Source of the DNA: Escherichia phage vB_EcoS_HZ_ZJUN2
Length of the DNA stretch: 64,000 bases
Sequence record: PP216084
Strand: one strand, 5' to 3'
How positions within the stretch are numbered: position 1 is the first letter of the stretch; each line of letters opens with the position of its first letter. The translations under genes were made by a program, and so were the position numbers. Positions 32,698-41,339 of this stretch are shown here, in pieces. The notes beneath the pieces were generated by a model. That model worked only from the letters and a program-made list of their open reading frames with translations, searched no databases and was not told where the DNA came from.

Positions 32698-33120
32698 ATG
32701 AGTACAGAAAACCGAGTTATTGATATTATTATTGATGAAAAAGTACCTTATGGTCTTATCATGCAATTTATGGATGTTGATGATAGTGTATATCCCCCAA
32801 CAGAAGTTCCTGTTAACTTAACCGGATATTCACTCCGAGGAACTATTAAGTCTAGCTTAGACGAGAACGCCGAAGTTCTAGCTAACTTTAAAACTCGTGT
32901 TATTGATGCTGCTCAAGGTGCTGCTGCAATTAGTCTTTCCGTTGCAGACGTTACTAATATTGGTGAAAAAGCATCTAAAGAACGTGATAAGTATAACCCA
33001 AGACAACGTTTTGCTGGTTATTATGATATCCTAATGACTCGTGATGTAATTGGCTCTGAAGTCAGTTCTTTCCGTATTATGGAAGGTAAAGTATACATCA
33101 GCGATGGAGTAACTCAATAA
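32698..33120 (+). CDS. Collar protein p132-like, 140 aa
   Basis: Synteny (immediately upstream of fibre genes); stop overlaps fibre start. Confidence 0.5.
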
Positions 33121-36100
33121 TGGCACTTAAAACTAAAATTATTGTACAGCAGATCCTGAACATAGATGACACTACAACTACTGCTAGTAAGTATCCTAAA
33201 TATACAGTAGTTTTAGGTAATTCTACTAGTTCTATTACTGCTGGTGAATTAACTGCTGCTGTAGAGGCCGCTGCAGGATCCGCTGCTGCTGCTAAAAATT
33301 CTGAAATAGCAGCTAAAGACTCTGAAAATAAAGCTAAAGATTCAGAAATTCAGGCAGGTATTCATGCTGATGCTTCTGAGGCTTCAGCAACCCAGTCTGC
33401 TGCTTCTGCTGCTGAATCTGAAAAACAAGCTAACTTATCTCAAAGTAGTGCTGAAAACTCTGCTGCTTCTGCCTTAGAATCTAAAAATTTTAGAGACGCT
33501 GCCGCACTTGCTGCTCAAAATGCAGAGCAGAGTAAGATTTTAGCAGATCAAGCTCAAAGAGCGGCAGAAGCTGCCCAGACAGCGGCTGAAACAGCTAGGA
33601 CTGGCGCTGAAACAGCAAAAGCTGGAGCAGATGCTGCTGCTACAACTGCTGGAGAACACGCTGCTGCTGCGAAACAATCAGAATTAAATGCTAAAACTTC
33701 TGAGACTAATGCTGCTAGCTCTGCTACAGAAGCGGGTGACAAAGCTATTGATGCTACTACTGAAGCAGATCGTGCTAAAGCTGAAGCAGATCGTGCAACT
33801 CAGATTGTTGATAGTAAACTTGATAAGGTAGATATTTCTGGCTTCATCAAAGTTTATAAGACTAAAGCAGAAGCCGATGCTGATGTTGGAAGTCGTGTAC
33901 TAGGGGAGAAGATCCTAGTATGGAACCAAACTGATTCAAAGTACGGATGGTATAAAGTAGCTGGAACTGCTGAAGCTCCTGTTTTAGAGCTAGTAGAGAC
34001 AGAGCAAAAGCTAGTTTCTATTAACAACGTTCGTGCAGATGACGCAGGTAACGTACAGATTACTCTTCCTGGTGGTAACCCCTCTCTATGGCTGGGTGAA
34101 GTTACTTGGTTCCCTTATGATAAGGATTCAGGTGTTGGCTACCCTGGTGTTCTTCCTGCTGATGGTCGTGAAGTTCTTCGAGTAGACTATCCAGATACTT
34201 GGGAAGCTATTGAGGCTGGCTTAATCCCTTCTGTTACCGAAGAACAATGGCAAGCAGGTGCAACTCTCTACTTCTCCACTGGTAATGGTACTACTACTTT
34301 CCGTCTACCTGATATGATGCAGGGGCAGGCTTTCCGTGCACCTACTAAGGGGGAAGAAGATGGTGGTGCTATCAAGGAACAAATCCCTTATATCACTACT
34401 GTGAATGGAATTAGTCCTGCTGACGATACTGGAGCTATTAAGCTCCCTTACGTGGCGATGGTTAATGGAACTATTATACCAGATGAGAATGGAAACCTAG
34501 CACTAGGTAACGTTGTTACTAAGAATGTTTGGAATGGCACTAATGGAGAAGTTCTGCTTCGCGGTGCTTTTGGTTTAGGTGGTGTTGGTATTACATTAAA
34601 TGAACCAGATCTAGTATCCTTCTTTAAAGCTATGAGGGCCTTTGGTTCTGGGTATTATCGCAACGATACTGGAGTTGAAGGCTTGCCCGCGTATTCTGCA
34701 GGTTTCTACTCTAGAACAGCAGATACTAACTCATTTATCTGTTCTGGGTATGGTAGTGCCGTAGTATTTGCAGCTGCAATCAATGATGCTATTTTAGATA
34801 GTGAAAACCCTATTGTTCATACTAATATTCTTTATGGTACTGTTAATAAGCCGGATCTAAATGGTGATACTAATGGAGTTCTTAGTGTTGGTAAAGGTGG
34901 TACTGGAGCTACCACAGTTAGTGCTGCTAAGAAAGCTTTAGAAGTTGGTGGAGTTTTCTGTAATGATAGCCCAGCTGATGCTGCTTTCAACTCTCTCCAG
35001 AGCCCTGCTGGTATTCATGAGTTTAGACTAACTAATGAGGGGTTATGGGGTGTATGGAAGAAGGAGGAAGAAACGGTAGCTGCGTTGCCTATAGGCTCTG
35101 GAGGTACGGGAGCTACTGATAAAGTTGCTGCACGTGATAACTTTGGATTGGGGTATCATAATACTCCTAGATTTACTGGGGTAGATCTATCTAACCCCGA
35201 AAGTATACCCTATAGTGGTATCCTTAACCTAAACAGGCTAAAGGAATCTGATCAAAATGTTATTACTCAGGGTAGAATCTATCATGAGATGCAATCAGGC
35301 TTGGCTAAAATTACCCTTCATATTAACAATACTTTAAATAGTGCAAACCGTTATATACAGTTTGTAGAAAATGGTGATTTAACTGGGCTACAGAATGTAC
35401 ATGCAGTTAACTACCTTGCAAGTGGTTATGTTACAGCCCAGGGATGGATCAAAGGCGGGGAAAAAATCTATATACAGCAAACAGGTGGTGGCAACAGGGA
35501 AATTAGTATGGCTGTACCTACTCCTAATAATGACCCTGGTGCTGGTTCTTGGGTTAACTTACTACAGGGTAACTGGTATAACGGTTACTGGCAAGTAGGT
35601 GGTATCCGTGGTAGTGGACAAGATTTAACCTGTCTTCGCATTGGTGTTAATAACGCTGGTACTGATTGGAAGGAATTCAATTTCTACAACACCTATGGTG
35701 GCCATATAACTGCTCCAAAAGGTTTTCGTGGTCAGTGTACTCAAGGATATTGGGGCTTAGAGTGGGATTACATGGGCGCTCCATTTCATGCAGAGTCTGT
35801 AACAAATAATGATGGTGGTTGGTCTCCTATAGTATCGGGAGGTTCTTTATCCGCTGGTGGATATCATTTAAGAATAGGCCTTGGCTGTATCTCTAATGGT
35901 AACACTGCATGGCCTGACGCTGCTCTTAAGTTAAATGGGGATGGCCAGTTCCACCGTTCATTCAACTTTAGAACAAACGGTAGCGTGTATACTTGGGGTA
36001 ATGATCCTTGGGGAGGTAACTATGACTTTGCTATGAACCCTTCTTCAGATAGAGATATCAAAAGAGATATTAATTATGATGATGGGTTAGCCTCCTATGA

Positions 36101-36470
36101 GAATATAAAGCAATTTAAACCTACCACATTTATCTATAAACTAGATAAGTATAATCGTGTACGCCGTGGTGTTATTGCTCAAGATCTTTATAAAATTGAC
36201 CCTGAGTACGTAAAACTGGTTCCTGGTTCCCCTATCATAGAAACTCCAGAACATCATTGCTGTGACGAAAAAACTGAGAACGTAGAAAGTAAGATCATTG
36301 ACTATGAGGATGATACTTTAGCTCTGGATATTAACCCAATTGCTATTGATACAGCTTTAGCAGTTCGTTACTTATCTCTAAAGTTCGAAGAGTCCCAGGA
36401 AGAACTGAAGTCCGTTAAGGCAGAACTGGCAGAGTTAAAAGCTCTAGTAGCCACTCTGGTAAATAAGTAA
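33120..36470 (+). CDS. L-shaped tail fibre protein (LtfA-like), 1116 aa, with C-terminal intramolecular chaperone domain
   Basis: N-terminal Ala/Ser/Glu coiled-coil; repeated GGTGAT motifs; C-terminal SDRDIKRDI...RRGVIAQDL segment typical of self-cleaving chaperone. Confidence 0.75.
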   Translation: MALKTKIIVQQILNIDDTTTTASKYPKYTVVLGNSTSSITAGELTAAVEAAAGSAAAAKNSEIAAKDSENKAKDSEIQAGIHADASEASATQSAASAAESEKQANLSQSSAENSAASALESKNFRDAAALAAQNAEQSKILADQAQRAAEAAQTAAETARTGAETAKAGADAAATTAGEHAAAAKQSELNAKTSETNAASSATEAGDKAIDATTEADRAKAEADRATQIVDSKLDKVDISGFIKVYKTKAEADADVGSRVLGEKILVWNQTDSKYGWYKVAGTAEAPVLELVETEQKLVSINNVRADDAGNVQITLPGGNPSLWLGEVTWFPYDKDSGVGYPGVLPADGREVLRVDYPDTWEAIEAGLIPSVTEEQWQAGATLYFSTGNGTTTFRLPDMMQGQAFRAPTKGEEDGGAIKEQIPYITTVNGISPADDTGAIKLPYVAMVNGTIIPDENGNLALGNVVTKNVWNGTNGEVLLRGAFGLGGVGITLNEPDLVSFFKAMRAFGSGYYRNDTGVEGLPAYSAGFYSRTADTNSFICSGYGSAVVFAAAINDAILDSENPIVHTNILYGTVNKPDLNGDTNGVLSVGKGGTGATTVSAAKKALEVGGVFCNDSPADAAFNSLQSPAGIHEFRLTNEGLWGVWKKEEETVAALPIGSGGTGATDKVAARDNFGLGYHNTPRFTGVDLSNPESIPYSGILNLNRLKESDQNVITQGRIYHEMQSGLAKITLHINNTLNSANRYIQFVENGDLTGLQNVHAVNYLASGYVTAQGWIKGGEKIYIQQTGGGNREISMAVPTPNNDPGAGSWVNLLQGNWYNGYWQVGGIRGSGQDLTCLRIGVNNAGTDWKEFNFYNTYGGHITAPKGFRGQCTQGYWGLEWDYMGAPFHAESVTNNDGGWSPIVSGGSLSAGGYHLRIGLGCISNGNTAWPDAALKLNGDGQFHRSFNFRTNGSVYTWGNDPWGGNYDFAMNPSSDRDIKRDINYDDGLASYENIKQFKPTTFIYKLDKYNRVRRGVIAQDLYKIDPEYVKLVPGSPIIETPEHHCCDEKTENVESKIIDYEDDTLALDINPIAIDTALAVRYLSLKFEESQEELKSVKAELAELKALVATLVNK

Positions 36471-36513
36471 GAGTATAGGGGAGTAATTCTCCCCTATTTA
36501 CTAAGGAAATACT

Positions 36514-38757
36514 ATGTCACGTAATTTAATGCCTAAATCTGGCGCAATGGCGCCTTACGTAGTAGTTAACAGAGACGCTGCAGTTGCAGGAGTATTCTCT
36601 GTTGATGGAGAGGCTGGTGCTGTTGTACTAACCTCCAAGTATCTTCAAATATCTAACTATACTATAGATAAAGAAGAATTAAATACTCGTTTAACTGGTA
36701 TTGATAGTTCCATTCAGAACAATGTAGAGGCTATTGGCAATATTAATACTGCAATTGGTAGTATTAATAGTACTCTCAATACTAAAGCTGCTAAAGGTGC
36801 TAATAATGATATTACAGAATTAAATGCGCTTACTAAGGCTATTACTATAGCTCAGGGTGGGACAGGTGCTAGCACTGCGGAAAATGCTAGAGTTAACTTA
36901 GAGCTTAATAGGTTTAAGCAGTTCCCCGGTGAAACTCTAGTATATAGTCCTTCTGCGACAAACTATCTTACTGTTGGTGAAGGTACTACATGGGGAGTTT
37001 ATAGCACAGCTTCTGGTACATTTATACCTTTACCTATTCAATCTGGTGGGACAGGTGCTAGTACTCCTGCGGAGGCCTTAACTAAGCTGCTAGATGGTAA
37101 ACCTCTAGCATTAGCCGCCGATGGTCAAGCACCTTATGATGCTGTTACTGTTCGTCAGCTAGCTAATATCTCAGGAGGAGGTGGTGCTAGCATGAGTGGA
37201 GTTATGAATAATCGTATCGGTGCTGTTGAATGGTTCAATGGTAACCGTACTAAACTGCCAGCCGGCTATATACCAGCAGATGGTCAGTTAGTTAGCCGTA
37301 CTGATGCTAAAACAGCAGATCTATGGTCTGCGGTATCTAGTGGTCTATTTTACTCTGTTTCCGACGCTTTATGGATTAATAGTGGGGATCCTGTTAGACC
37401 CTGCGCTTGGAGAGCTTCCTACTCTACTGGTGATGGTTCTACTACTTTCCGAGTTCCAGATCTTAACGGTACTCAGTTAAATAGTATTAAGCATTTATTT
37501 TTATCTGGTAGTTCAGGTGCTACTAATGAACCTTCGGCTAATCAGGTGTGGAATCAGGTTGCCCCTAATATTACTGGTAATTTCTACACTCATGGTAGTA
37601 ACGCAGATGCTGCAGATGCCATGGGGGCTTTTTATTTAAATGCTCAAGATACAGGTAGTTCATTTAATATAGGAGGTACAGATAAGGGAGACCACTTAGG
37701 ATTTTCGGCCTCTAGAAGTAGCAAGACATACGGTCGTGGTGTGGCTTACCAACCAGACCCTGGTGGTACCAGCCCTATTGGTGATCTATACCCTAACCAT
37801 GCAGCCGGTATTTGGATTATCCGTGCTAACGGTTCTTTTAACGCTGCTAGTACAGACTTTTCTTCTATTAATGCTGATGCCTCGGCTCCTGCAGTTAGTA
37901 CAACTGTATTAGGTGGTAAACTAACCTCTCAATACAGAGTGGGTGCAACAGATGCGTATAGGATGCGTATGTATGCTCAAGGTGCCTATGCGCGAAACTT
38001 AGTGGGTGTTATAGCTGTAGAAAACCAATTAGCAAGTGAGATAGATGTGGCCCACTTTAATTTCGGGTTAGATGGTGCAATTAGGTTGGGAAAAGCTATA
38101 GGAGGTTCTTCAACTTCTTTAGCTTATGGGTACACTCCTTTTAGAGCACAAGATTGGTGGAATACTTCCCCCTATGGAGCTTTTGTCCCTATTGTTGGTG
38201 GAGGTACAGGAGGGCCTGGAGGCGCTTGGAGAAGCTATACGGCTCTAGGTACACTTACTATGGGTAGTGATATTAACACTCACCCAAATGCAATGCTTAC
38301 ACAATGCTGGGATTACAATCTTAGTACTGGGGAATCCCCTAGTGGTAACACTGTTAGAAATACTATCTTTAATGGTACTAGTTATGATATTACTTTTGGT
38401 GATAATGCAGGTACTGTTAACTATATATTTAGTAAGTCTCCAATTTCAGATCGTAATAAGAAAAAGGATATTGAATCCTTAAGCACTTCCATTGCTCTGG
38501 AGAATATTAAGCAGATGGAGTATATCTCATTTAAGTACATATATGATAAAGGGAATCAGGTACGTAGAGGTTTTATCGCGCAACAACTAGAGGAGATTGA
38601 TAGTCAATATGTAAGAAAATACGAATCTTCCGACGGTTCTACTTCTCTGGCCCTAGATGAGAATGTGCTTCTATTAGATGCTTTGGCGGCAATTCAAAAT
38701 CTAAGTAATCAGATAGAGGAGCTAAAACTTCAGATAGCTGAGTTAAAGGCTAAGTAA
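36514..38757 (+). CDS. Second tail fibre protein (LtfB-like), 747 aa, with C-terminal intramolecular chaperone domain
   Basis: GGTGAST motifs at two sites; C-terminal SDRNKKKDI...RRGFIAQQL segment paralogous to the preceding fibre. Confidence 0.7.
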   Translation: MSRNLMPKSGAMAPYVVVNRDAAVAGVFSVDGEAGAVVLTSKYLQISNYTIDKEELNTRLTGIDSSIQNNVEAIGNINTAIGSINSTLNTKAAKGANNDITELNALTKAITIAQGGTGASTAENARVNLELNRFKQFPGETLVYSPSATNYLTVGEGTTWGVYSTASGTFIPLPIQSGGTGASTPAEALTKLLDGKPLALAADGQAPYDAVTVRQLANISGGGGASMSGVMNNRIGAVEWFNGNRTKLPAGYIPADGQLVSRTDAKTADLWSAVSSGLFYSVSDALWINSGDPVRPCAWRASYSTGDGSTTFRVPDLNGTQLNSIKHLFLSGSSGATNEPSANQVWNQVAPNITGNFYTHGSNADAADAMGAFYLNAQDTGSSFNIGGTDKGDHLGFSASRSSKTYGRGVAYQPDPGGTSPIGDLYPNHAAGIWIIRANGSFNAASTDFSSINADASAPAVSTTVLGGKLTSQYRVGATDAYRMRMYAQGAYARNLVGVIAVENQLASEIDVAHFNFGLDGAIRLGKAIGGSSTSLAYGYTPFRAQDWWNTSPYGAFVPIVGGGTGGPGGAWRSYTALGTLTMGSDINTHPNAMLTQCWDYNLSTGESPSGNTVRNTIFNGTSYDITFGDNAGTVNYIFSKSPISDRNKKKDIESLSTSIALENIKQMEYISFKYIYDKGNQVRRGFIAQQLEEIDSQYVRKYESSDGSTSLALDENVLLLDALAAIQNLSNQIEELKLQIAELKAK

Positions 38758-38764
38758 AAGAAAA

Positions 38765-38793
38765 CCCCAGTGGATTGTCCACTGGGGTTTTTT
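38765..38793. terminator. Bidirectional intrinsic terminator between convergent late and early units
   Basis: ccccagtgg-attgt-ccactgggg flanked by AAAA upstream and TTTTTT downstream. Confidence 0.7.
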
Positions 38794-40348: not shown

Positions 40349-40830
40349 TATTTAATTAAGTCCTCAACAGATGCATGATGTAGCCACGGCTCAAATAAAC
40401 CAATTACGATTTCCATGTCTTTCTTATTTAACACCATATGGGTACGACTCATTAAGTTGTCAACCATCGGGTCTGAGCTATCCAAAGCTATTAACCACTG
40501 TCCTCTGTCTTTTTTGAATATTAATGCAGGTTTGGAGTTCATCTGCTCACCTTCACGTGAGCACTGCTGCCACCATTTCTCTAGGGTGGATTCGCCAACA
40601 TTAAATAAATTACTTGATATATTATCATCTTTATACCACTTAACTTCGAAGCAGTATTTACTAATGTGTCCGCTTTGTGGTGGAAGGTAGATGTCACCTT
40701 TCAGTCCGTGGCTCTGGCCAAAAGCACCAGAGCCAGGAACACGTTCCCACTCAAGACCTGTACGTTCACGTAAAATATCTCTTACCTGATATTCACCACG
40801 TTTACCCTTCTCTCTACTATCTACAGCCAT
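40348..40830 (-). CDS. D14-like protein, 160 aa, possible resolvase-like nuclease
   Basis: KGKRGEYQVRDILRE...VPGSGAFG resembles Hjc-type resolvase N-terminus; weak. Confidence 0.4.
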   Translation of the reverse strand: MAVDSREKGKRGEYQVRDILRERTGLEWERVPGSGAFGQSHGLKGDIYLPPQSGHISKYCFEVKWYKDDNISSNLFNVGESTLEKWWQQCSREGEQMNSKPALIFKKDRGQWLIALDSSDPMVDNLMSRTHMVLNKKDMEIVIGLFEPWLHHASVEDLIK

Positions 40831-41339
40831 TATTCCTCTGGGAAATTTAATACTGCGAAATCACCGAAGTATTCTTTTGCTTTAATATCATATGCTTTGG
40901 CGGCCTCCTCTAGAGTATTAAAAGATCCTAAGTTCTCTCTAATACCAGTATTAGGGTTCTTAATTCTAGCCCTGGGTTTACCATCTCTACCGTTGGGGAA
41001 ATCTAAACCTTTATACTTAGTAGTCTTAGATCTAGAAGCTCTATTTTGGGCTTGCTGGGACTTAGAAGCATTACGTAAGTTATCTGGAGTATCATTTTGT
41101 CTATTTCTATCTTTATGATCCACTGAGTCTGCCCAGGTACCGTTTGTCATAAAGTAAATTAAATCGTATACTCTATATTCCGTCCCCTTAATACTTGTTC
41201 TATAATATCCATCTTTCGATAGGGATCCAACTCGAGACCCTCTTTTAGCTGATCCTACCGATTTTCTATAGAATAGAGTACCATCCCTAATTTCATACCT
41301 ATCCTGTAGGAACTCTATAGTTATATCTTGCTTTTTCAT
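40830..41339 (-). CDS. HNH homing endonuclease with AP2 DNA-binding domain, 169 aa
   Basis: HNH_3-like DHKDRNRQNDTPDNL and AP2-like YKGLDF...NTLEEAAKAYDIKAKEYFG. Confidence 0.65.
   Translation of the reverse strand: MKKQDITIEFLQDRYEIRDGTLFYRKSVGSAKRGSRVGSLSKDGYYRTSIKGTEYRVYDLIYFMTNGTWADSVDHKDRNRQNDTPDNLRNASKSQQAQNRASRSKTTKYKGLDFPNGRDGKPRARIKNPNTGIRENLGSFNTLEEAAKAYDIKAKEYFGDFAVLNFPEE

What the first reader, a model, noticed from the sequence alone, without database searches (positions are those of the whole stretch)
33120..38757. Two consecutive tail-fibre genes, each with its own C-terminal self-cleaving chaperone domain
The 1116 aa and 747 aa proteins both end in a ~120 aa segment with the S-D-R/K-x-K-D-I signature and an RRG[VF]IAQ motif characteristic of intramolecular chaperone (peptidase S74-type) domains, and both contain GGTGA[TS] attachment-like repeats. 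T5 has a single 1396 aa L-shaped fibre, so this locus is a mosaic host-range module predicting two distinct receptor-binding tips.
Basis: partly seen in the sequence, partly recalled or inferred. Interest (0 to 1): 0.5.

Follow-up and report, generated by a model that had tools for sequence, protein, structure and literature searches.

The report
Branched two-protein T5-like side fibre
This is the already-described two-gene (LtfA + LtfB) side tail fibre locus of a T5-like phage, in which each protein carries its own self-cleaving folding domain and its own host-binding tip; it is an ordinary member of a published system, notable only for pairing two known alleles in a combination not seen in the phage collection searched.

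Summary
Window 33120-36470 (1116 aa) and 36514-38757 (747 aa) are intact adjacent genes, each ending in a Pfam Peptidase_S74 intramolecular chaperone domain. The catalytic Ser/Lys pair aligns with T5 pb1 Ser1264/Lys1269 (LtfA S976/K981, LtfB S645/K650).

The locus is ltfC-ltfA-ltfB of a T5-like phage (Markadamsvirinae). This is the branched lateral tail fibre described for DT57C and DT571/2 by Golomidova et al. 2016, who already named SPC35 as a two-ltf phage. LtfA is 94.8% identical to SPC35 LtfA, and its exact sequence is GenBank WVX92453.1 (Escherichia phage vB_EcoS_HZ_ZJUN2). LtfB is 94.8% identical to HdH2 LtfB. About 30% of T5-like records in the phage collection carry this architecture.

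LtfA has the conserved LtfC-binding N-terminus and the internal domain shared with kuravirus fibres. LtfB has the conserved 45-aa N-terminal adaptor. These two elements occur in near-identical numbers of records, with matching organism breakdowns.

The repeats coincide with homology breakpoints, so they look like module junctions. Only the allele pairing (SPC35-type LtfA with HdH2-type LtfB) is new here. Verdict: already known, low interest.

The parts
32698..33120 (+). ltfC: collar / lateral-fibre attachment protein (140 aa). Its TAA stop shares one base with the ltfA ATG (TAATG).
   Evidence: Pfam LtfC PF23926, E 1.6e-15. PHROG 'collar tail protein for L-shaped tail fibre attachment'. Sequence at 33118-33122. 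Role taken from the DT57C cryo-EM study (PMC10713586).
33120..36470 (+). ltfA: lateral tail fibre protein A, 1116 aa (predicted mature form 975 aa).
   Evidence: ORF. 94.8% identical over its full length to SPC35 LtfA. Exact sequence is WVX92453.1. PHROG 5481 tail fibre, full length.
33120..33809 (+). LtfA aa 1-230: N-terminal LtfC-binding strands (aa ~1-40) followed by an Ala-rich trimeric coiled coil with 21-nt (heptad) periodicity.
   Evidence: phmmer to DT57C LtfA chain 8hqz_d, aa 1-458, E 4.6e-242. 45.7% identity to T5 pb1 aa 1-215. 21-nt tandem periodicity. Structural role from PMC10713586.
33810..34445 (+). LtfA aa 231-442: proposed LtfB-docking domain, shared with kuravirus fibre proteins (phiEco32 gp14, SU10 gp12) and absent from T5 pb1.
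   Evidence: 41.6% identity to phiEco32 gp14 aa 239-461. SU10 gp12 chain 7z47_D, E 3e-43. No T5 pb1 match for this segment. Occurs in 245 phage records (154 T5-like + 91 others), matching the distribution of the LtfB N-terminus.
34881..35165 (+). LtfA aa 588-682: two GGTGAT repeat units (aa 593-598 at 34896-34913; aa 661-666 at 35100-35117). This is a shaft/junction element before the variable tip.
   Evidence: Motif positions. Sw2 and HdH2 nucleotide homology ends at aa 597 and aa 612.
35166..36044 (+). LtfA aa 683-975: beta-rich distal (receptor-binding) region.
   Evidence: AF2 model with mean pLDDT 78.6, all-beta. No solved-structure match apart from the IMC part. Closest relatives outside T5-like phages are fibres of ~50-kb siphoviruses and Enterobacter/E. 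coli prophages. In DT57C and DT571/2 the equivalent LtfA region switches host specificity (PMC4728585).
36045..36467 (+). LtfA aa 976-1116: intramolecular chaperone (Peptidase S74). Predicted cleavage is between Ser975 and Ser976; the dyad is S976 (36045-36047) and K981 (36060-36062). It contains a ~29-aa insertion (aa 1035-1063) with an HHCC motif.
36475..36497 (.). Perfect 9-bp-stem hairpin in the 43-nt ltfA-ltfB spacer, followed by the RBS AAGGA (36503-36507) 6 nt upstream of the ltfB ATG.
   Evidence: Scan and sequence. The spacer is absent in HdH2 and Sw2, where ltfA and ltfB abut.
36514..38757 (+). ltfB: lateral tail fibre protein B, 747 aa (predicted mature form 644 aa).
   Evidence: ORF. 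94.8% identical over its full length to HdH2 LtfB, 39.7% to DT571/2 LtfB, 34.6% to phiEco32 gp15. PHROG 6921 tail fibre, full length.
36514..36648 (+). LtfB aa 1-45: conserved N-terminal adaptor, proposed to dock on LtfA.
   Evidence: 100% identical to HdH2. 71-76% identical to the kuravirus (phiEco32/SU10-type) second fibre protein over aa 1-45/48 while the rest diverges. Same observation in PMC4728585.
36823..37110 (+). LtfB aa 104-199: two GGTGAS repeat units (aa 115-120 at 36856-36873; aa 178-183 at 37045-37062).
   Evidence: Motifs. SPC35 and DT571/2 nucleotide homology stops at 36871/36870, inside repeat 1. 41 of 91 LtfB-family proteins begin their similarity at aa 170-199, at repeat 2.
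37111..37863 (+). LtfB aa 200-450: shaft region with a tail-collar-like segment. It is also similar to LtfA aa 325-399.
   Evidence: Pfam Collar PF07484, 24.0 bits against a cutoff of 24. BLASTP LtfA vs LtfB, E 5e-10. Homology to DT57C LtfA aa 444-838. ECOP18 nucleotide homology ends at aa 454.
37864..38445 (+). LtfB aa 451-644: beta-rich distal (receptor-binding) region. This is the most variable module.
   Evidence: Shared at the nucleotide level only with HdH2 and Sw2. 46-47% identical modules in fibres of ~44-kb siphoviruses. AF2 model pLDDT mostly 75-90. No solved counterpart.
38446..38754 (+). LtfB aa 645-747: intramolecular chaperone (Peptidase S74). Predicted cleavage is between Ile644 and Ser645; the dyad is S645 (38446-38448) and K650 (38461-38463).
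38759..38793 (.). Strong bidirectional intrinsic terminator. It closes the late tail-gene operon and the convergent early operon.
   Evidence: 16-bp stem with T-runs on both strands. T5 and HdH2 have an annotated bidirectional terminator at the same position.

Best explanation
The locus encodes the branched lateral (L-shaped) tail fibre of a T5-like siphovirus.

Proposed mechanism, step by step:
1. ltfC, ltfA and ltfB are transcribed together as late genes. ltfC and ltfA are translationally coupled (TAATG), ltfB has its own RBS, and one bidirectional terminator ends the unit.
2. LtfA trimerises. Its first ~40 residues are clamped under the dodecameric LtfC collar at the tail tip, and a ~190-residue coiled coil projects outwards.
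3. The domain at aa 231-442 serves as the dock for the conserved 45-residue N-terminus of the LtfB trimer. LtfB therefore forms a side branch while LtfA continues to its own tip.
4. Each protein folds its beta-rich distal region with the help of its own C-terminal intramolecular chaperone. Once the trimer is correct, the chaperone removes itself through a Ser-Lys dyad (LtfA Ser976/Lys981, LtfB Ser645/Lys650). This leaves mature proteins of 975 and 644 residues with exposed tips.
5. The two tips reversibly bind two different surface polysaccharides, most likely O-antigen types. This lets the phage cross the O-antigen layer of two host serotypes before the central fibre protein engages its outer-membrane receptor.

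The fibre is built from exchangeable modules. The GGTGA[ST]-containing repeats and a site near LtfB aa 450 act as junctions at which modules have been swapped with other T5-like phages, kuraviruses and T1-like phages.

Shown here: the genes, domains, catalytic residues, predicted IMC fold, homologies, breakpoints and matching distributions. Inferred from DT57C, DT571/2, T5 and phiR2-01 experiments: assembly order, branching, cleavage, and O-antigen as the ligand.
For: Gene order pb3-pb4-ltfC-ltfA-ltfB, then a convergent dut operon, is identical to DT571/2, HdH2, SPC35, ECOP18 and Sw2.

Attachment elements:
- LtfA aa 1-458 matches the cryo-EM chain of DT57C LtfA (8hqz_d, E 4.6e-242).
- LtfA aa 231-442 matches SU10 gp12 (7z47_D, E 3e-43).
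- LtfB aa 1-45 is 71-76% identical to the kuravirus second fibre protein.
- The LtfB N-terminus and the LtfA docking domain occur in almost the same numbers of records: 235 vs 245 in total, about 148 vs 154 T5-like and about 87 vs 91 others, with matching organism breakdowns.
- T5 pb1 lacks the docking domain.

Chaperone domains:
- Both C-termini pass the Pfam S74 gathering threshold.
- Ser and Lys align with T5 Ser1264/Lys1269. The role of Ser1264 was shown by the S1264A mutant and crystal structure; Lys1269 is the proposed partner (PMC4690869).

Published experiments on relatives:
- Genetics in DT57C and DT571/2 show that LtfA C-terminal swaps switch O-antigen specificity and that LtfB mutants lose a second host type (PMC4728585).
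- DT57C cryo-EM finds no LtfB density on the tail core (PMC10713586).
- Both fibre proteins of phiR2-01 were detected by proteomics (PMC8624392).

Mosaic structure.
Against: Nothing here tests this phage directly.
- No LtfA-LtfB complex was modelled or observed.
- The docking domain is only 42% identical to the kuravirus protein. For SU10 the two homologous proteins are described as proximal and distal halves of one kinked fibre, not as a branch (PMC9509320).
- The monomeric AF2 models of the tips match no solved receptor-binding domain, so carbohydrate binding is inferred, not shown.
- The receptors of SPC35-type LtfA and HdH2-type LtfB are not known from the papers read.
Confidence: 0.85

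Rival explanations
1. Serial fibre. LtfB is the distal half-fibre joined end-to-end to LtfA, as the proximal (gp12) and distal (gp13) long-tail-fibre proteins are described for kuravirus SU10. Only the LtfB tip would then contact the host, and the LtfA C-terminal region would be a joint rather than a receptor-binding domain.
For: The SU10 paper describes the homologous pair as proximal and distal parts of one 700-A fibre with a single elbow (PMC9509320). LtfA aa 231-442 and LtfB aa 1-45 are homologous to those proteins.
Against: - LtfA carries its own S74 chaperone with an intact dyad. That domain matures free C-terminal tips.
- The docking homology lies at aa 231-442, more than 500 residues before the mature LtfA end.
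- The kuravirus first protein ends in a different domain (Phage_tail_C_2) without S74.
- In DT57C and DT571/2, exchanging the LtfA C-terminal region switches host specificity, and ltfB nonsense mutants keep the LtfA-dependent host (PMC4728585).
Confidence: 0.07
2. Two independent fibres. LtfB attaches to the tail tip by itself, not through LtfA, giving two separate fibre sets rather than a branched one.
For: At low contour, DT57C maps show weak densities near the tail tip that the authors discuss as possibly folded-back LtfB (PMC10713586).
Against: - LtfB has no similarity to any T5 tail protein, whereas the tail-tip proteins here are T5-like.
- No robust LtfB density is seen on the DT57C core.
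- The LtfB N-terminus occurs in almost the same number of records, with the same organism breakdown, as the LtfA internal domain, including in podoviruses that have a quite different tail.
Confidence: 0.04
3. One of the two genes is a redundant or decaying passenger left by recombination. Only one functional receptor-binding fibre protein would remain.
For: - The locus is a recombination hot spot. Laboratory passage of DT530 and DT571/2 produced LtfA-LtfB fusions (PMC4728585).
- A 264-aa fragment 99% identical to the LtfB C-terminus is annotated in a 'Shigella sonnei' record.
Against: - Both ORFs are intact with conserved catalytic residues.
- Each is ~95% identical over its full length to genes in independently isolated phages.
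- There are no long direct repeats between the two genes here.
- The adaptor (100% vs HdH2) and the chaperone domains (100% vs SPC35, 99% vs HdH2) are the best conserved parts.
Confidence: 0.03

Closest known systems
LtfA/LtfB branched lateral tail fibres of T5-like phages DT57C and DT571/2 (Golomidova et al. 2016, PMC4728585; structure of the attachment site in Ayala et al. 2023, PMC10713586)
   Same: - Same gene order ltfC-ltfA-ltfB and same flanking genes.
- LtfA aa 1-442 is 87% identical to DT571/2 LtfA.
- LtfB aligns over its full length at 40% identity, with an identical first 20 residues.
- Both proteins end in S74 chaperones.
   Different: The distal halves are different alleles. LtfA beyond aa ~442 and LtfB beyond aa ~120 share no nucleotide homology with DT571/2. 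The O-antigen specificities (O22-like/O87 and O81 in those phages) therefore cannot be transferred. There is also no long ltfA/ltfB direct repeat here.
Salmonella phage SPC35 (LtfA allele) and Escherichia phage vB_EcoS_HdH2 (LtfB allele)
   Same: LtfA is 94.8% identical over all 1116 aa to SPC35_0123. LtfB is 94.8% identical over all 747 aa to HdH2 gp102. The exact LtfA sequence is WVX92453.1 of Escherichia phage vB_EcoS_HZ_ZJUN2.
   Different: SPC35 pairs this LtfA with a different 695-aa LtfB (similar only over aa 1-192). HdH2 pairs this LtfB with a different 1027-aa LtfA (similar over aa 1-675). No record in the phage collection covers the whole 5.6-kb locus; the best covers 84%.
[quoted passage not shown] 2015, PMC4690869)
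   Same: The N-terminal attachment region and coiled coil are homologous (46% identity over 230 aa). Both have a C-terminal S74 chaperone with the same Ser...Lys dyad.
   Different: T5 has one 1396-aa protein, no LtfB-docking domain, no GGTGA repeats and no second fibre gene. There is no sequence similarity to the pb1 bullet-shaped receptor-binding domain.
Kuravirus long tail fibre pair (phiEco32 gp14/gp15; SU10 gp12/gp13, PDB 7Z47)
   Same: The LtfA docking domain matches gp14/gp12 (42% identity, E 3e-43). LtfB matches gp15 over its full length (35% identity), with a 71-76% identical N-terminal 45 aa. GGTGA repeats are present.
   Different: These are podoviruses, and the first protein attaches to the adaptor rather than to an LtfC collar. 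The first protein ends in Phage_tail_C_2 and has no S74 chaperone. The SU10 fibre is described as proximal plus distal parts rather than as branched.
Endosialidase-type C-terminal intramolecular chaperone domains (phage K1F endoNF 3GW6, GA-1 gp12 3GUD, MyRF ICA 7DC3)
   Same: Pfam family, catalytic dyad, predicted fold and terminal coiled-coil helix all agree.
   Different: The cargo is a thin fibre tip rather than a tailspike enzyme. The LtfA copy has a ~29-residue insertion carrying an HHCC motif.

Membership tests
Peptidase S74 / C-terminal intramolecular chaperone domain (PF13884) | Sequence match to the family model above the curated threshold, at the extreme C-terminus of a fibre or spike protein | tested here: met
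   LtfA aa 976-1032 scores 39.2 bits and LtfB aa 645-700 scores 49.4 bits, against a cutoff of 22.
Peptidase S74 / C-terminal intramolecular chaperone domain (PF13884) | Catalytic Ser with Lys five residues downstream, aligned with T5 pb1 Ser1264/Lys1269 | tested here: met
   In the MAFFT alignment, S976/K981 and S645/K650 fall in the same columns as T5 S1264/K1269. The residue roles come from PMC4690869.
Peptidase S74 / C-terminal intramolecular chaperone domain (PF13884) | IMC fold: a mixed alpha/beta body followed by a long C-terminal helix that forms the trimeric coiled coil | tested here: met
Peptidase S74 / C-terminal intramolecular chaperone domain (PF13884) | Autoproteolytic release of the domain after trimer folding | not testable with these tools
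   This needs virion mass spectrometry, or expression of wild-type against S976A / S645A proteins.
Branched LtfA/LtfB lateral tail fibre of T5-like phages | Gene order ltfC-ltfA-ltfB between the straight-fibre gene (pb4) and the convergent dut operon | tested here: met
   pb4 domains, LtfC; terminator. The order is the same in DT571/2, HdH2, SPC35, ECOP18 and Sw2.
Branched LtfA/LtfB lateral tail fibre of T5-like phages | LtfA N-terminus homologous to the LtfC-bound part of DT57C LtfA / T5 pb1 | tested here: met
   8hqz_d E 4.6e-242 over aa 1-458. The first 20 residues are identical to DT571/2, HdH2 and SPC35.
Branched LtfA/LtfB lateral tail fibre of T5-like phages | Internal LtfA domain homologous to phiEco32 gp14, and LtfB N-terminal ~45 aa homologous to phiEco32 gp15 (the proposed contact) | tested here: met
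   LtfA aa 223-442 vs gp14 aa 239-461: 41.6% identity, E 3.6e-45. LtfB aa 1-45 is 71-76% identical in kuraviruses. The two elements occur in 245 vs 235 records.
Branched LtfA/LtfB lateral tail fibre of T5-like phages | Physical attachment of LtfB to LtfA, giving a branched fibre | not testable with these tools
   Only monomer structure prediction was available. The claim is inferred from PMC4728585 and PMC10713586.
Branched LtfA/LtfB lateral tail fibre of T5-like phages | Each protein has its own receptor specificity (different O-antigens) | not testable with these tools
   The two distal regions are divergent and independently exchangeable, which is consistent with separate specificities, but binding was not tested.
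T5 pb1-type single L-shaped fibre | One ~1400-aa protein carrying the bullet-shaped receptor-binding domain (4UW7) | tested here: not met

The most novel reading that the evidence does not exclude
The ~30-residue GGTGA[ST] repeat units (h-x-h-x-x-GGTGA-[ST]-x3-A-[RK]-x-[NA]-L) may be dedicated 'splice points' of enterobacterial phage fibres. They would be structurally neutral and conserved at the DNA level, so that homologous recombination at them exchanges whole distal cassettes between T5-like, T1-like and phiEco32-like phages. The pairing seen here (an LtfA allele known from Salmonella/E. coli phage SPC35 with an LtfB allele known from E. coli phage HdH2) would be a fresh product of such exchange and could give a two-genus host range.
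Probability: 0.3. Interest if true: 0.35.

Novelty: already known. Interest (0 to 1): 0.12.

Why it matters
It matters little for basic biology, because the architecture, its genetics and the attachment structure are already published. It has practical value for annotation: both genes should be named ltfA and ltfB rather than the generic 'tail fiber protein' or 'chaperone of endosialidase' used in many records. It also helps host-range prediction and engineering. The module map (docking domain, adaptor, GGTGA junctions, tip, chaperone) shows where tips can be swapped. The SPC35-type LtfA / HdH2-type LtfB pairing predicts recognition of two different O-antigens, which is easy to test.

Tried and rejected
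- **Database failures.** A homologue search with the LtfB tip alone returned just 3 proteins. A full-length LtfB search timed out. Two attempts to fetch the contig of the 99%-identical 'Shigella sonnei' fragment failed because the server was unavailable.
- **NCBIfam.** It returned no family for either protein.
- **Internal promoter or terminator between ltfA and ltfB.** The promoter-like count equals the shuffled expectation (20 vs 19.3). The spacer hairpin lacks a T-run on the + strand, so no regulatory claim is made.
- **Long direct repeats between ltfA and ltfB** (the cause of fusion deletions in DT57C-type phages). None longer than 43 nt at 81% identity were found.
- **Literature on the GGTGA motif.** The search returned only primer sequences. 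A search for the source phage name found no relevant paper.
- **'Attachment-like' role for the GGTGA repeats.** Rejected, because the attachment elements map elsewhere.
Full report
**1. Observation**

One runs 33120-36470 (1116 aa) and the other 36514-38757 (747 aa), both on the + strand and both starting with ATG. Each ends in a Pfam Peptidase_S74 ('chaperone of endosialidase') domain that scores above the curated threshold: LtfA aa 976-1032 at E 8.6e-10, and LtfB aa 645-700 at E 5.5e-13.

RRGVIAQ (aa 1015) and RRGFIAQ (aa 684) are present. GGTGAT (LtfA aa 593 and 661) and GGTGAS (LtfB aa 115 and 178) are also present. GGTGA[TS] is found nowhere else in any of the six frames of the 64-kb window, and only 0.003 copies are expected by composition.

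The literal pattern S-D-[RK]-x-K-D-I does not match either protein. The true strings are SDRDIKRDI and SDRNKKKDI, that is Ser with Lys at +5. The segments that would be released are 141 and 103 residues, not about 120 each.

**2. What the window is**

The first 25 kb of the window is 90-93% identical at the nucleotide level to many T5-like phages (Demerecviridae, Markadamsvirinae), with the same gene content. Upstream of the finding lie pb3, pb4 (four PB4 Pfam domains, E 1e-198) and a 140-aa LtfC-family protein. Downstream, on the other strand, lie DUF7369, dUTPase, flap endonuclease and the D14 nuclease.

The same order, ltfC-ltfA-ltfB followed by a convergent dut operon, is annotated in DT571/2, HdH2, SPC35, ECOP18 and Sw2. 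T5 itself has one 1396-aa ltf gene at this position.

The ltfC stop overlaps the ltfA start (TAATG). ltfB has its own AAGGA ribosome-binding site after a 43-nt spacer that contains a hairpin. A strong bidirectional terminator (38759-38793) follows the ltfB stop, as annotated in T5 and HdH2.

**3. Identity of the two proteins**

LtfA is 94.8% identical over all 1116 residues to SPC35 LtfA. LtfB is 94.8% identical over all 747 residues to HdH2 LtfB. The exact LtfA sequence is in GenBank as WVX92453.1, 'tail fiber protein [Escherichia phage vB_EcoS_HZ_ZJUN2]', so the window probably comes from that phage or a near-identical one.

SPC35 carries a different LtfB (695 aa, similar only to aa 1-192). 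HdH2 carries a different LtfA (1027 aa, similar to aa 1-675). No record in the phage collection covers the whole 5.6-kb locus; the best covers 84% at 91% identity. The allele pairing is therefore unseen in that collection, but each allele is known.

**4. Anatomy**

LtfA:
- aa 1-458 match the DT57C LtfA chain of cryo-EM entry 8HQZ (E 4.6e-242).
- aa 1-230 match T5 pb1 aa 1-215 at 46% identity. This is the part that is woven under the dodecameric LtfC collar and then forms a trimeric coiled coil (PMC10713586). The DNA shows 21-nt periodicity there.
- aa 231-442 have no T5 counterpart. They are 42% identical to phiEco32 gp14 aa 239-461 and match SU10 gp12 (7Z47_D, E 3e-43).
- Two GGTGAT repeat units follow (aa 588-682), then a beta-rich region (aa 683-975), then the chaperone (aa 976-1116).

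LtfB:
- aa 1-45 are 100% identical to HdH2 and 71-76% identical to the second fibre protein of kuraviruses, although the rest of those proteins is only about 35% identical.
- Two GGTGAS units follow (aa 104-199), then a collar-like shaft (aa 200-450; Pfam Collar at threshold), a beta-rich tip (aa 451-644) and the chaperone (aa 645-747).

**5. The chaperone domains**

In a MAFFT alignment with T5 pb1, DT571/2 LtfA and LtfB, phiEco32 gp15, SPC35 LtfB and HdH2 LtfA, Ser976/Lys981 and Ser645/Lys650 fall in the columns of T5 Ser1264/Lys1269. In T5, the Ser1264Ala mutant blocks autoproteolysis, and cleavage occurs at the Thr1263-Ser1264 bond. The chaperone is a trimeric coiled coil with beta-hairpin 'tentacles' gripping the tip, and only the processed protein competes with phage for the receptor (PMC4690869).

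LtfA has a ~29-residue insertion (aa 1035-1063, containing HHCC) that LtfB lacks. It lies in the same alignment columns as an extended stretch of the T5 pb1 chaperone. It is modelled as a low-confidence hairpin.

**6. The tips**

Outside the chaperones, BLASTP finds only short similarities between LtfA and LtfB: the collar-like segment and the GGTGA units. Profile-profile comparison does show that the last ~130 mature residues plus the chaperone are distant homologues (LtfB aa 511-747 vs LtfA aa 849-1109, probability 99.9%). The two tips are thus divergent versions of one kind of distal domain, preceded by unrelated segments.

Neither tip matches any solved receptor-binding domain, including the T5 'bullet'. 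Monomer models of intertwined trimers are a poor basis for such a search, so this result is weak.

Both tip families also occur in fibres of 44-51-kb siphoviruses (for example Pubbukkers, McMelon, vojen, SFP17 and Klebsiella phage Samwise) and in Enterobacter and E. coli prophages. The modules are therefore shared well beyond T5-like phages.

**7. Mosaicism**

blastn against six relatives gives sharp boundaries:

| Relative | Where nucleotide homology ends or resumes |
|---|---|
| DT571/2 | ends at LtfA aa 424; in ltfB covers aa 1-119 only |
| Sw2 | ends at LtfA aa 597 |
| HdH2 | ends at LtfA aa 612; resumes exactly at the ltfB start |
| SPC35 | ends at LtfB aa 120 |
| ECOP18 | ends at LtfB aa 454 |

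Three of these ends (Sw2, SPC35, DT571/2) fall inside a GGTGA hexapeptide, and the HdH2 end is 14 residues after one. Among 91 LtfB-family proteins, 41 begin their similarity at aa 170-199 (the second GGTGAS unit) and 11 at aa 430-459. Many of these are related sequences, so these counts are not independent events.

The pattern fits a reading of the repeats as junctions between exchangeable modules. It does not fit 'attachment' repeats.

**8. Docking hypothesis tested by distribution**

| Element (tblastn query) | Records matched | T5-like | Other |
|---|---|---|---|
| LtfB aa 1-100 | 235 | 148 (>=80% coverage) | ~87 kuraviruses (first 45-48 residues only) |
| LtfA aa 231-442 | 245 | 154 (>=60% identity) | 91 (<60% identity: kuraviruses and a few Erwinia phages) |

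The organism breakdowns are almost identical:

| Organism label | LtfB aa 1-100 | LtfA aa 231-442 |
|---|---|---|
| Escherichia | 111 | 112 |
| Salmonella | 91 | 95 |
| Shigella | 5 | 5 |
| Klebsiella | 3 | 3 |
| Yersinia | 2 | 2 |

LtfC at >=60% identity is present in about 509 records, so about 30% of T5-like records have the two-gene locus. The matching distributions, across two virus families with unrelated tails, support a direct partnership between the two elements.

**9. Published function**

Golomidova et al. 2016 (PMC4728585) reported the following:
- DT57C and DT571/2 have ltfA and ltfB instead of one ltf. SPC35, phiR2-01 and AKFV33 share this arrangement.
- All of these proteins end in pfam13884 domains with predictable cleavage sites.
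- Exchanging the LtfA C-terminal region switches specificity between O22-like and O87 O-antigens.
- LtfB recognises a third type, most probably O81.
- The fibres are needed only on O-antigen-producing hosts.

Cryo-EM of DT57C found LtfA but no LtfB density on the tail core (PMC10713586). In phiR2-01 both fibre proteins were detected by proteomics (PMC8624392). The BASEL study notes that Markadamsvirinae lateral fibres consist of one polypeptide or of two or more proteins (PMC8594841). O-antigen glucosylation protects S. Typhimurium from SPC35 (cited in PMC12541327). This suggests, but does not prove, that one of the SPC35 fibre proteins reads the O4,12 antigen.

**10. Rivals**

The main alternative is a serial fibre. 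For SU10 the homologous proteins are described as proximal and distal halves of a kinked fibre (PMC9509320). That reading is unlikely here for three reasons:
- LtfA keeps its own chaperone and more than 500 residues beyond the docking domain.
- The kuravirus first protein ends in a different domain without S74.
- The DT57C genetics assign specificity to the LtfA tip.

Independent attachment of LtfB, and decay of one gene, are each poorly supported (see the rival entries).

**11. Verdict**

The finding is correct and well read, but it describes a known system. Each gene is about 95% identical to annotated genes, the exact LtfA is in GenBank, and the architecture and mechanism were published in 2016 and 2023. 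What is specific to this window is the pairing of an SPC35-type LtfA with an HdH2-type LtfB, and a clean example of module boundaries at GGTGA repeats. Interest is low.

Noticed in passing
window 34896-34913, 35100-35117, 36856-36873, 37045-37062: The four GGTGA[TS] hexapeptides sit in ~30-residue repeat units. Nucleotide homology to Sw2, SPC35 and DT571/2 ends inside a hexapeptide, and homology to HdH2 ends 14 residues after one. 41 of 91 LtfB-family proteins start their similarity at the second LtfB unit. The repeats look like recombination junctions between fibre modules.
   Followed up: partly
window 36222-36308 (LtfA aa 1035-1063): The LtfA chaperone domain carries a ~29-residue insertion containing HHCC that is absent from the LtfB chaperone. 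It is conserved in the LtfA-tip family and modelled with low confidence. It lies in the same alignment columns as an extended stretch of the T5 pb1 chaperone and could be the 'tentacle' hairpin. The two His and two Cys suggest a possible metal site, which was not tested.
   Followed up: partly
window 36475-36497: A perfect 9-bp-stem hairpin lies in the 43-nt ltfA-ltfB spacer, with no T-run on the coding strand. The spacer exists in SPC35-, ECOP18- and DT571/2-type loci but not in HdH2 or Sw2, where the two genes abut. Its role (mRNA processing or stability, or a recombination scar) is unknown.
   Followed up: no
window 40830-41339 (- strand): A 169-aa HNH_3 endonuclease ORF (Pfam E 3e-7) is inserted between the D14 nuclease gene and the SbcC-like D13 gene. 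DT571/2 and HdH2 have no gene at that position. It is probably a homing endonuclease.
   Followed up: partly
proteins P0001 and P0239 (relatives of window 36514-38757 and 33120-36470): The exact LtfA sequence is WVX92453.1 of Escherichia phage vB_EcoS_HZ_ZJUN2. The exact LtfB sequence is not in the protein collection. A 264-aa protein 99% identical to LtfB aa 484-747 is annotated as 'Shigella sonnei' on a 110,460-bp contig. The contig could not be fetched.
   Followed up: partly
phage collection hits H120 (PQ773600.1) and H172 (MG065642.1): Records labelled 'Corynebacterium phage CPphiVTCCBPA_418' and 'Campylobacter phage A148' contain this enterobacterial T5-like fibre locus at 84-95% protein identity. 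The host labels are probably wrong, or the records are contaminated.
   Followed up: no
window 35166-36044 and 37864-38445: Both distal tip modules have their closest non-T5 relatives (35-58% identity) in lateral fibres of 44-51-kb siphoviruses and in Enterobacter / E. coli prophages. Tip cassettes therefore circulate across phage families.
   Followed up: partly
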